From Octopus sinensis (Eukaryota): a stretch of DNA of 64,000 nucleotides. The notes beneath the pieces were generated by a model. That model ran no database searches. It was not told where the DNA came from and saw only the letters and a program-made list of their open reading frames with translations. The stretch spans positions 2,418,001 to 2,482,000 of the forward strand of contig NC_043014.1 of assembly GCF_006345805.1 (NCBI RefSeq), written 5' to 3'. The translations under genes were made by a program, and so were the position numbers. This document shows positions 4,801-11,400 of the stretch, one piece after another. The stretch's first letter is position 1, and the number at the start of each line of letters is the position of its first letter.

Positions 4801-4885
4801 CCATTACCTACACTGCAAAGACCCCCACACTACTTCAACGCTCACCAATTCTTACAAAGAGAGGACAAAACTGTTGTCGCCTTAC

Positions 4886-5012
4886 CGTGACGGATATTTC
4901 TCCAAGCTGAAGAGCTTTAAAGTTGTTGGGGTTTTGTGGGTCTTTGGTCAAAACATACCCAGTCTTTGACGCTTCCACACTGTATTTCTTGTCTCCGTGA
5001 AGAGGTCCCAAG
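4886..5012 (-). CDS. NOMO1: NOMO exon 22
   Basis: RLGPLHGDKKYSVEASKTGYVLTKDPQNPNNFKALQLGEISVT; cag/gtaagg; phase 2->0. Confidence 0.95.
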
Positions 5013-5932: not shown

Positions 5933-5971
<39 letters not shown>

Positions 5972-6110
5972 CGGAGATGTACTCGCATAGCAAGTGATTT
6001 GATCTGAGATCGTGTGCTGAAACGAAAACAATTGCAGTGTGGAAGGTGTTTGTAAGCCATTTAAGAAACACACAAAAGCCGTTCGATTCACTCCAACATT
6101 TAAGTTTAAT

Positions 6111-6159
6111 TTGTCAAAATATTTTCGTCGCTATAAGACCGCGACCTGTTCACTGACAA
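6111..6159 (-). ncRNA. Putative type I hammerhead ribozyme, G3-C8 variant (left palindrome arm)
   Basis: ttgtca-GUGAACA-G-GUCGC(9 nt)GCGAC-GAAA-AUAU-UU-tgacaa: 6-bp stem I, 5-bp stem II, palindromic stem III. Confidence 0.65.
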
Positions 6160-6179
6160 GAATCCATGCTGCACGGATT

Positions 6180-6230
6180 TTTGTCAGTGAACAGGTTGCG
6201 GTCTTAAAGCGACGAAAATATTTTGACAAA
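6180..6230 (+). ncRNA. Putative type I hammerhead ribozyme, G3-C8 variant (right palindrome arm)
   Basis: tttgtca-GUGAACA-G-GUUGC...GCGAC-GAAA-AUAU-UU-tgacaaa. Confidence 0.62.
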
Positions 6231-7567
6231 TTAAACTTAAATGTTGAAGTGAATCGAACGGCTTTTGTGTGTTTCTTAAATGGCTTAGAAACACCTTCCA
6301 CGCTGCAATTGTTATATATATATATATATATATATATTTAAATAATGAGGGAGATAAATTGAATATTAATTTAATTAATATCAATTTAAAACCAGTAGCC
6401 TAGCATATAAAAAATCTGAAAAATCAGTTGCCTAGCATTGTATTGAAATATATATATATATATATAAATCATCATCATCATCATCATCGTTTAACGTCCG
6501 TTCTCCATGCTAGCATGGGTTGGACGGTTCGACCGGGGATCTGGGAAGCCAGAAGGTTGCACCAGGCTCCAGTCTTATCTGGCAATGTTTCTGTGAATTT
6601 TTGAATGTGTACAAATAAACACACACACACAGAGTCAAGAGACTTGAATGGTGCAAGTGAACTGACAAAGTCCTTAGTACATCAGACACAACATTCCACG
6701 GTATTTGTTGACTACAAGGCATCTCGTTTGATGCTCTACTGACTCTGCTAAAGTCATTGCCCTAGGCTGCTATTTTATCATCTGAATCTGAAATCCCTAG
6801 CTAGTGATTGGAGGGGGTGGTCGTCCTCTCAACCAATACGCTGACGTCAATGCCACTGGAGGACGGACTCTGATGACAATGTGATTATGCGATTCCACGC
6901 TTTCTGATTCAAAGCCAGCACCATGAATCAGAAAGCATGGAATAGGGTTAGGGTTAGGGTTAGGCTTGAACCCATACAACACAAAGCCCTTCTGCCAACA
7001 CACTGACTCCTACACCGACCCTTGCACTGGAATTTCATTTTATTAAACCACCCCAGACCCCTAAAAAAAATGAAAGGCAAAGCTTGACCACTGCAGAATT
7101 TGAACTCAGAATGCAGGCAATAGGAACAAACACCACAAGGCACTTTGCCTCGTGTCCTTCCGATCCTGCCAATTCTCCACCAATGGAATCTTCGTACTGA
7201 AATATGAGCAGCACGGAAGTTTACAGCAAATGATAACAATGATAGGAATGGTAGGGGAGTCAGTGTGGTTGTCGTTTAGCCCCAGGTCAGCCATGATCAA
7301 ACAGGCATAAGGCTGAAGACATTCCAGACTTCACCACTAACTCATTTATTCAGTCACAGTGTATCTAGGACTACATTGTTGAAAAGTGTCTTTTAGTAAA
7401 AAAAACAAAGCAAAACAGAAAAGAGTATTGTAGGGTGTGATTGAAGGGAGATTTAGCTGCTGTTTATAGTGTGTCAAGCAATTAGATGGCAGAGTGTTAG
7501 TGGTTGGTGAATGAGGATTTATCTATCAATCAGATTTTAAGAGAAGGCGAGATAGGAACATAAAATC

Positions 7568-9156: not shown

Positions 9157-9671
9157 CCCAAGGAATGTTATCAATGGAAAGATAACAAGATCACGACTGA
9201 CAGATCTTGAGTTTGTTAGATTAATTCTCAACTCAAACTAAATAACATCTCTCTCTCTCCCACCCTCTCCCCCTCTCTCTTTCTCCCTCACTCTCCCACT
9301 CCTCTCCCTTCCTCCCTCTCTTCCCTCCCACCATCTCCCCTCTCTTTCTCCCTCACTCCCTCTCGCTCGCTCTCTCTCTCCCTCCCTCTCCCACTCTTCT
9401 CTCCTTCCCTCCCTCTCTCCTTCCCTCCCTCTCTCCCTCCCACCATCTCCCTCCCACCATCTCCCTCACTCTCTCTTCTTCCCTCCCCCATCTCTCTCCC
9501 TCTCTTCCTTCCTCCCCCTCTCGCTCTCTCTCTCCCTCTCTTCTCGCCTTCCCTCCCTCTCTCTCTCCCCTCTCCCTCTATTCTCTCCTTCCCTCCCTCC
9601 CACCATCTCCCCCCTCCCTCTTGTGATGTAGAGAAGTGGACTAAAATGATGTGAATTAAAAGCCATTTTAC

Positions 9672-9834
9672 CGATAGACTCCATCCTGGTCTGTTAGCAA
9701 TGTGGTCGGCGCCATAGTAACAGGATCGTCACAAGACACCACGACAGTGACCCCTTGCAGAGCTGGTTCTATCATGCCAGTGATGAAGATACCGACCTTG
9801 CCGACAAAGTGGGCCACTTCTCCAGGACAGCTTT
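9672..9834 (-). CDS. NOMO1: NOMO exon 21
   Basis: ESCPGEVAHFVGKVGIFITGMIEPALQGVTVVVSCDDPVTMAPTTLLTDQDGVY; cag/gtaaaa; phase 1->2. Confidence 0.94.
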
Positions 9835-11400
9835 CTGCGAAAGAGAGAGAGAGACAAGGAAGAAGACATTTGAGCAGAGACAGGTGGAAGATGGAGACGT
9901 GCATGGACGGGGGGGGGGGACACGTGCATAAGCAACATCAATTTCTGTATCGAAGATTTAATAAATTAGCCATTAGCAACGGCAGCAGAATTTGTAATTG
10001 CAAAACATCAACAGTCGCAGGTGTGGTTTTGTGGTAAGAAATTTGCTTCCAAACCACATGGTTCTGGGTTCAGTCCCACTGCGTGGCACCTGGGGTAAGT
10101 ATCTTCTATTATAGCCTCGGGCCAACCAAAGTTTTCTGAGCAGATTTAGTACATGGAAACTGAATGAAGCCCATTGTATATATATGTGTGTGTGTGTGTG
10201 TGGCATGTAAAAGCACCCTCTACACTCACGGAGTGGTTGGCATTAGGAAGGGCATCCAGCTGTAGAAACTCTGCCAGATCAGATTGGAGTCTGGTGCAGC
10301 CATCTGGTTCGCCAGACATCAGTCAAATCGTCTGACCCATGCTAGCATGGAAAGCAGACGTTAAACGATGATGATGAGGATGTGTGTGTGTGTGATGTCA
10401 ATGGCACCCATGCCAGTGGCATGTTAAAAGCACTCCCTACACTCTTGGAGTGATTGGCGTTAGGAAGGGCATCCAGCTGTAGAAACATTGCCAAATCAGA
10501 TTGGAACCTGGTGCAACTCCCTAGCTTACCAGTTCCCAGTCAAACCATCCAACCCATGCTAGCATGGAAAACGGACATCAAACAATGATGTATGTATAAC
10601 TATGTGTGCCATTCCGTCTGTGTTTGTCCTCAGCACCACTGCTTGACAACCGGTGTTGGTATGTTTGCATCCCCATAACTTAGCGGTTCAGCAAAAAAGA
10701 ATGATAGAATAAGTACTGGGCTCAAAAAAGAAGTACTGGAGTCGATTCATTCGACTAAAAATTCAAGGAGGTGCCCCAACATGGCCACAATCTAATGGCT
10801 GAAACAAGTAAACTATAAAAGATAAGCGGAATGGCTAAACAAAGAATGGCTAAACAGGTGCAGGAGTGGCTGTGTGGTAAGTAGCTTGTTTACCAACCAC
10901 ATGGTTCCGGGTTCAGTCCCACTGCGTGGCACCTTGGGCAAGTGTCTTCTACTATAGCCTTGGGCCGACCAAAGCCTTGTAGTGCATTTGGTAGACAGAA
11001 ACTGAAAGAAGCTGTCGTATATATGTATAATATATATATTATATATATATATGCGTTTGTGGTGTCTGTGTTTGTCCCCCTAGCATTGCTTGACAACCGA
11101 TCTGGTGTGGCTTACGTCCCCGTCACTTAGCGGGTCGGCAAAATAGACCGATAGAATAAGTACTGGCTTACAAGAATTAAGTCCCGGGGTCGATTTGCTC
11201 GACTAAAGGCGGTGCTCCAGCATGGCTGCAGTTAACTGACTGAAACAAGTAAAGAGTAAAAGAGGCCATCAAGGTTGGATCAACGCAAGGAGAACCAAAC
11301 TGAAATGGAAAAAGATGATCATGGACCGAGTTGGGTTGAAAAATAATAAAGTGTGAAGATGAGAAGGGTCAATGACGAAAGAAAAAGGTGTCAGACTCAC

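What the first reader, a model, noticed from the sequence alone, without database searches (positions are those of the whole stretch)
6111..6230. Pair of hammerheads with a swapped G3-C8 core (GUGAACA) in a fold-back in NOMO intron 21
Every hammerhead element is intact: 6-7-bp stem I, 5-bp stem II closed by G-C, GAAA, palindromic AAUAUU stem III and a UU cleavage site. The core is GUGAACA instead of CUGANGA, an exact Watson-Crick swap of the 3-8 pair that CUGANGA-based searches would miss. The minus copy is sense to the NOMO pre-mRNA, but the 140-bp fold-back would be expected to sequester it (inference).
Basis: partly seen in the sequence, partly recalled or inferred. Interest (0 to 1): 0.75.

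Follow-up and report, generated by a model that had tools for sequence, protein, structure and literature searches.

The report
Swapped-core hammerhead in Penelope retrotransposon end
This fold-back is the broken-off end of a jumping gene with thousands of copies, and it carries a hammerhead RNA motif in which two paired core letters have traded places; the motif likely cuts only weakly if at all, and is predicted to be folded shut inside this intron.

Summary
In detail: two hammerhead motifs with a GUGAACA core lie in 143-nt inverted arms (95% alike) in a NOMO intron. The motif pattern has 6,721 genomic matches (control 1); longer copies carry an RT plus GIY-YIG gene upstream. Homologous sister lineages keep C3-G8 in the same scaffold, so G3-C8 is a natural double change, which I did not find in print (three key papers unavailable). 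Laboratory C3G/G8C mutants are partly active. Against strong function: cleavage is untested, a sister lineage spread to about 2,900 copies with an A9C core, and G3·G8 mismatch copies are three- to fourfold in excess. In the NOMO pre-mRNA the fold-back is predicted to abolish the hammerhead fold, so a role in the host gene is unlikely. This scan already noted the same swap elsewhere in this genome and in other genomes. Verdict: new variant of a known kind, moderate interest.

The parts
5970..6169 (-). 3'-terminal ~200 nt (pLTR) of a Penelope-like retroelement, 5'-truncated; includes a ~56-nt tail (5970-6026) absent from the inverted arm
   Evidence: 40 scored genomic copies 95-98% identical over ~199 nt; longer copies continue upstream into a microsatellite-rich UTR and an RT/GIY-YIG ORF
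6171..6313 (+). inverted 5' copy of the same element end, stopping at the inner 3' end (no tail)
   Evidence: 40 of 96 loci examined hold such a back-to-back arm; 75 of 144 hits end at position 197-199 and 43 at 139-145
6111..6159 (-). type I minimal hammerhead motif with G3-C8 core, sense to NOMO; predicted cut between 6117 and 6116
   Evidence: cleavage not tested
6147..6153 (-). core GUGAACA (G3 at 6153, C8 at 6148), followed by extra G at 6146
6181..6229 (+). second hammerhead motif in the inverted arm, antisense to NOMO, one G-U pair in stem II; predicted cut between 6223 and 6224
5933..5969 (.). (TA)n microsatellite at the left junction (target site)
6313..6340 (.). (TA)n microsatellite at the right junction
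9671..9840 (-). NOMO exon upstream of the host intron (approximate bounds)
   Evidence: Pfam PF22902 E 1.4e-08; human NOMO2 784-838
4883..5012 (-). probable NOMO exon downstream of the host intron (approximate bounds)
   Evidence: open frame between AG and GT, lying between exons that match NOMO2 784-838 and 879-920; not itself searched against a family

Best explanation
The fold-back is a truncated insertion of a Penelope-like retrotransposon whose terminal repeat carries a minimal type I hammerhead motif with a natural G3-C8 swap, which likely self-cleaves only weakly, as a dimer or with protein help, in the element's own RNA and is predicted to be inert in the NOMO intron. Shown: repeat family, upstream RT/GIY-YIG gene, two discrete 3' ends, TA target, homology to C3-G8 sister lineages. 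Inferred: the element's protein nicked the TA repeat and reverse-transcribed from two start sites about 56 nt apart, leaving a direct and an inverted arm; the swap was fixed in the founder lineage as a compensatory change that keeps the 3-8 Watson-Crick pair; two RNAs pair through the AAUAUU palindrome to build stem III. The swapped ribozyme did not hinder spread (thousands of copies), and cleavage is probably helpful at most, not required.
For: 6,721 matches, control 1; 92 of first 100 G3-C8, 0 C3-G8. Upstream ORF with YVDD, C-x3-C-x2-C linker and GIY-YIG (PF01541 E 6.1e-05 above cut-off; 19 homologs at 36-52%, one named reverse transcriptase). Sister lineages: 54% protein identity; the 140 nt 3' of the hammerhead align at 60-71% identity in 6 of 6 sister copies, scores 53.5-81 against shuffled maxima 35.5-46.5. 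In 18 chosen representatives the 3-8 columns pair in 18 (11 C-G, 5 G-C, 2 U-G), stem II pairs in 97.8% of cells with an A-U/G-C double change, and T4, G5, A6, A13, A14, A15.1, G10.1, C11.1 never vary. Within the family, frequent variants fall in loop II (5 sites), one stem I site that keeps pairing as U-G, and outside the motif; apart from position 8, which I oversampled, none falls in the core. C3G/G8C partly restores cleavage in a Penelope hammerhead that needs protein (PMC11167929). Fold-back abolishes the fold.
Against: No cleavage data; no raw RNA reads were offered. The 18 representatives were picked with patterns that demand much of the motif and are related, so overstate covariation; the swap is one event, not five. 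G3·G8 copies number about 190 (68 of first 100 of 280) against about 45-60 expected from the other transversions, and occur in old and young subfamilies. The youngest sister lineage carries C at conserved A9 in 39 of 39 motifs and 77 of the first 100 of 3,738 matches. G3 is predicted to pair with U17 (P 0.67), like the trap described for C3-G17 (PMC3884650). The hammerhead dimer (-23.6 kcal/mol) is 5 above the best two-strand fold (-28.8). Pfam finds no RT family in 2 of 2 RT pieces. No full-length copy with a 5' pLTR was found among the loci fetched.
Confidence: 0.7

Rival explanations
1. The motif is a catalytically dead relic: hammerheads in this clade are under relaxed selection, the hairpin is kept (if at all) as a structure for protein binding, and G3-C8 arose by two tolerated changes.
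For: A9C lineage at about 2,900 copies; excess G3·G8 copies, some sharing a stem II mismatch; hammerhead mutants do not affect insertion in vitro and no RNA ends were seen at the cut site in the anole element (PMC11167929); predicted G3·U17 trap.
Against: With the neighbouring tail only 60-71% identical between lineages, drift is unlikely to change exactly positions 3 and 8 to complements while leaving the other core positions unchanged (inference); subfamily variation avoids the core.
Confidence: 0.25
2. The pair has been co-opted by the host: the sense copy cuts the NOMO pre-mRNA, or the 143-bp hairpin regulates it through editing or small RNA.
For: The minus copy is sense to NOMO; during transcription the antisense arm is made first, and the duplex is very stable (-233.5 kcal/mol for 343 nt), so it would be a long double-stranded RNA in the intron.
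Against: One of thousands of young copies, 40 of 96 sampled loci have the same fold-back; the arms differ at 7 of 143 sites as other copies do; hammerhead stems have probability 0.000 in context, and the blocking arm is transcribed before the motif.
Confidence: 0.04
3. Chance resemblance to a hammerhead.
For: No Rfam hammerhead match; monomer folding z-scores only -2.4 and -2.0.
Against: Sits in the pLTR where Penelope hammerheads are found and aligns column by column with canonical CUGANGA motifs of homologous sister lineages.
Confidence: 0.01

Closest known systems
Minimal type I hammerheads in pLTRs of metazoan Penelope-like elements (Cervera and de la Pena 2014, PMC4209133; parts 1-2 of 4 of the text and parts 1-2 of 3 of supplement 2 read)
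   Same: Position in the pLTR; extra nucleotide between 9 and 10.1; G10.1-C11.1; short palindromic stem III; U17 common; mostly solo copies; dual copies on opposite strands described; low activity, as dimers only.
   Different: Core G3-C8. Their 56 representatives show 53 C3-G8, 2 U3-A8, 1 U3-G8 and no G3, but their descriptor demanded the canonical boxes. The extra nucleotide is G here, H in their consensus.
Natural U3-A8 core variants (Perreault et al. 2011, PMC3088659, section 8 read; Schistosoma Cercyon elements, PMC4209133)
   Same: Natural covariation of the 3-8 pair.
   Different: U3-A8 keeps a pyrimidine at 3 and a purine at 8 and is reachable through a U-G wobble; G3-C8 reverses the pair and must pass through a mismatch (inference).
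Engineered C3G/G8C double mutants (PAc hammerhead of Anolis Poseidon, PMC11167929, parts 1-2 of 4 read; review passage PMC8495972)
   Same: Identical base swap; singles inactive, double partly active.
   Different: Those are laboratory mutants; here it is the wild-type state of thousands of copies.
Neptune/Nematis-type endonuclease-bearing Penelope-like elements (Craig et al. 2021, PMC8557442; passages read)
   Same: RT, cysteine linker, C-terminal GIY-YIG; 5' truncation; inverted copy at the 5' end; tail at one end; microsatellite targets.
   Different: Tail is about 56 nt rather than 30-40; clade not placed on a tree here.

Membership tests
Endonuclease-bearing Penelope-like elements | single ORF with RT followed by GIY-YIG endonuclease | tested here: met
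   In longer copies, not in the window: GIY-YIG by Pfam; RT by YVDD motif and homologs; Pfam RT families not hit.
Endonuclease-bearing Penelope-like elements | 5'-truncated copies with inverted 5' copy and a tail at one end | tested here: met
Endonuclease-bearing Penelope-like elements | full-length copy flanked by two direct pLTRs | tested here: inconclusive
   none among the fetched loci; longest copy L062 is truncated inside the RT
Neptune/Nematis clades | CX2-5CxxC linker between RT and endonuclease | tested here: met
   C-x3-C-x2-C in the L061, L062, L063, L068 frames; definition from PMC8557442
Neptune/Nematis clades | placement by RT phylogeny | not tested
   no named reference elements were at hand
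Minimal type I hammerhead | stems I and II around U4 G5 A6 N7, A9 and G12 A13 A14 A15.1, U16.1, H17 | tested here: met
Minimal type I hammerhead | C3-G8 identity (CUGANGA) | tested here: not met
   G3-C8
Minimal type I hammerhead | Watson-Crick complementarity of positions 3 and 8 | tested here: met
   formation of the pair in three dimensions not tested
Minimal type I hammerhead | palindromic stem III allowing dimers | tested here: met
   AAUAUU; dimer structure possible but not the most stable two-strand fold
Minimal type I hammerhead | self-cleavage 3' of position 17 | not testable with these tools
   no raw RNA reads offered; contigs cannot show ends
Rfam hammerhead families | covariance-model match | tested here: not met
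   sister loci also unmatched
Non-LTR retrozymes | ORF-less tandem units each with a hammerhead | tested here: not met
   copies are dispersed ends of a coding element; a few local direct duplications exist

The most novel reading that the evidence does not exclude
A Penelope-like lineage fixed a fully reversed G3-C8 catalytic pair that still cleaves, crossing a G3·G8 mismatch valley whose traces survive as excess copies; a whole class of GUGANCA hammerheads has therefore been invisible to CUGANGA searches, and this genome holds a natural series (C3-G8, U3·G8, G3·G8, G3-C8, A9C) on one scaffold with which to test whether Penelope elements need their ribozyme at all.
Probability: 0.35. Interest if true: 0.6.

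Novelty: new variant of a known kind. Interest (0 to 1): 0.4.

Why it matters
The 3-8 pair is central to hammerhead catalysis; G3-C8 was known as a partly active laboratory rescue, and in the papers I could read nature had shown only C-G, U-A and U-G. A family of thousands of copies with the reversed pair means search descriptors should allow any 3-8 pair. More usefully, what hammerheads do for Penelope elements is open; here homologous, recently active lineages differ at single core positions (G3-C8, C3-G8, A9C), which makes the question testable with natural sequences. The intronic location in NOMO appears incidental.

Tried and rejected
Rfam at gathering and E-value thresholds: no hammerhead. 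A search for other G3-C8 families outside this scaffold gave 613 matches against 343 control; the first 100 showed variants of this family and an unrelated repeat without hammerhead stems, no second clear family (read by eye). A tree of 110 motif-plus-tail segments with columns 3 and 8 masked separates the G3 family from C3/U3 lineages but is noisy (flanks not fully trimmed, short alignment); it shows G3·G8 copies scattered, so I could not establish them as the ancestral intermediate. The idea that G3·G8 is enriched in the old subfamily was not borne out on reading by eye. In-vivo cleavage: the run search returned no raw RNA reads; contigs of four runs (organism labels A-D) hold the motif with no alternative letter at 5% or more in the core, but contigs cannot show ends or expression. 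A full-length element was sought upstream of the longest copy and not found. The two-template idea for the arms has only modest support. Look-up of this scan's notes by sequence gave nothing. Three primary papers were not held and were not read: Lunse et al. (PMC5785218), Przybilski and Hammann 2007 (PMC1986816), Nelson and Uhlenbeck 2008 (PMC2151028); a natural G3-C8 could be reported there or in supplements of Perreault 2011 that I did not open.

Full report
Observation. The window holds inverted arms 6027-6169 and 6171-6313, 143 nt and 95% complementary, between two TA repeats. Each arm contains a type I hammerhead-shaped motif reading away from the centre: stem I, GUGAACA, one extra G, a 5-bp stem II closed by G-C, GAAA, AAUAUU, U17. 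Folded alone, the minus motif forms stems I and II (probabilities 0.95 and 0.995; z -2.4). The host gene is NOMO on the minus strand; the insertion lies between the exon ending near 9,671 and a probable exon near 5,012-4,883. I did not check the intron number. Rfam has no match, nor for 5 of 5 sister loci.

What it is. The 199 nt 5971-6169 are a young repeat: 1,632 candidates, and the 40 scored are 95-98% identical apart from the window itself. A motif pattern with positions 3, 7, 8 and 9a free has 6,721 matches against 1 for the reversed control; 92 of the first 100 listed are G3-C8 and none is C3-G8 (counted by eye). Walking upstream leads through a microsatellite-rich UTR to an ORF ending about 850 nt before the hammerhead, with a YVDD motif, a C-x3-C-x2-C linker and a GIY-YIG domain (PF01541, E 6.1e-05). 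Pfam found nothing in the two RT pieces, but 19 longer homologs match at 36-52%, one named a reverse transcriptase of Octopus vulgaris; a piece of that protein is up to 99% identical to copies in G000, so the genome is likely an octopus. This is the architecture of Neptune/Nematis-type Penelope-like elements (PMC8557442, passages); the clade was not tested by tree and no full-length copy was found.

The fold-back is an insertion footprint. 40 of 96 loci examined hold a back-to-back arm; 75 of 144 hits end at position 197-199 and 43 at 139-145. The window has one arm of each kind. Inverted 5' copies, one-sided tails and microsatellite targets are described for these elements, dual hammerheads on opposite strands in PMC4209133, and two reverse-transcription start sites bounding the tail in PMC11167929. 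That the same mechanism made this insertion is inference. Since the motifs are on opposite strands, they are not a cis dimer pair.

Is the swap real? The genome has canonical minimal hammerhead families (4,764 matches against 672 control). One group shares our scaffold. Its youngest member encodes a protein 54% identical to ours, and the 140 nt 3' of the hammerhead align at 60-71% in 6 of 6 sister copies, all above shuffled maxima (alignments). In 18 chosen representatives the 3-8 columns read C-G 11, G-C 5, U-G 2; stem II is 97.8% paired with an A-U/G-C double change, stem I 76.7%. These rows were selected with motif patterns and are related, so the shuffle control (0 of 500) is not a probability and the swap counts as one event. 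Within the family, frequent variants lie in loop II, at one stem I site that stays paired as U-G, and outside the motif (position 8 was oversampled by me). Contigs from four runs under four organism labels show no alternative core letter at 5% or more. Selection on the fold in founder lineages is therefore the likeliest reading.

Evidence against strong function. First, G3·G8: 280 matches have G8, of which the first 100 are G3 68, T3 20, C3 11, A3 1, about 190 G3·G8 copies. Decay at position 3 gives 233 matches (A 59, T 22, C 19 of the first 100) and at position 8 gives 197 for T or A (70 and 30), so about 45-60 would be expected. These copies are scattered over subfamilies; in L099 one arm has G8 and the other C8. 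A hotspot, small amplified lineages or relic intermediates all remain possible. Second, the young sister lineage has C in place of A9 in 39 of 39 motifs and 77 of the first 100 of 3,738 matches, about 2,900 copies; that A9C harms catalysis is recalled, not from a call. Third, G3·U17 is predicted to extend stem I (P 0.67), resembling the C3-G17 trap (PMC3884650, passages), and the hammerhead dimer is 5 kcal/mol above the best two-strand fold. Fourth, in the anole element hammerhead mutants do not affect insertion in vitro.

Mechanism, committed. In the element's own transcript two motifs would pair through AAUAUU and cut after U17, slowly and probably with protein help; the G3-C8 pair would stand in for C3-G8, as in the engineered double mutant that is partly active. 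My odds: Penelope origin 0.97; true hammerhead homolog with a compensatory swap 0.9; measurable cleavage in some context about 0.6; no role in NOMO about 0.9. In the NOMO pre-mRNA the antisense arm is made first and the 143-bp duplex drives both hammerhead stems to probability 0.000.

Novelty. PMC4209133 lists 56 representatives: 53 C3-G8, 2 U3-A8, 1 U3-G8. PMC3088659 section 8 reports U3-A8 only. Searches for G3-C8, G3C8, GUGANCA, C3G/G8C and octopus with Penelope and hammerhead returned engineered cases only. Also seen: PMC6765202, PMC13725137 and PMC8495972 as passages, bioRxiv 10.64898/2026.07.22.740005 part 1 of 5 and passages. Three primary papers were not held, and one supplementary file of PMC4209133 could not be searched, so absence from print is not certain. 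This scan's notes, consulted after my reading was formed, record the same swap in this genome and in other genomes; they are unchecked and are not support.

Verdict. A real feature and a new variant of a known kind: an ordinary Penelope insertion whose hammerhead has an unusual, lineage-wide reversed core pair. Interest 0.40; up to 0.6 if cleavage is shown and the natural series of core variants proves informative.

Noticed in passing
L151-L180 (e.g. L173:2587-2636:+): A very young, abundant sister Penelope lineage (3,620 protein candidates) has C at the conserved A9 of its hammerhead in 39 of 39 motifs, about 2,900 copies genome-wide, while older copies keep A9; suggests the ribozyme is dispensable there or tolerates A9C.
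   Followed up: partly
L091-L110: G3·G8 mismatch copies are three- to fourfold above neutral expectation; L094, L098, L100 and L110 also share a stem II mismatch, hinting at a small amplified lineage with a broken motif.
   Followed up: partly
L122, L123, L125, L126, L128, L129, L130: An old related lineage often has T at position 3 with G8 (U-G wobble); may be its founder state or decay.
   Followed up: partly
L003 and L030 (both arms): The two arms carry different loop II haplotypes of the family, as if copied from two RNA templates; over 41 arm pairs, differences are 53 of 426 at polymorphic sites against 186 of 4,156 elsewhere, far below random pairing (0.41).
   Followed up: partly
L084-L088: Two further canonical minimal-hammerhead families in this genome, unrelated in stem II.
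   Followed up: no
window 6467-6600: A second common repeat, beginning after (CAT)n, follows the insertion; similar sequence recurs many times in the window's ORF list.
   Followed up: no
listing (e.g. L150:397-449:-): Older G3-C8 copies with C at 10.2, some with a matching G at 11.2 and many without.
   Followed up: no
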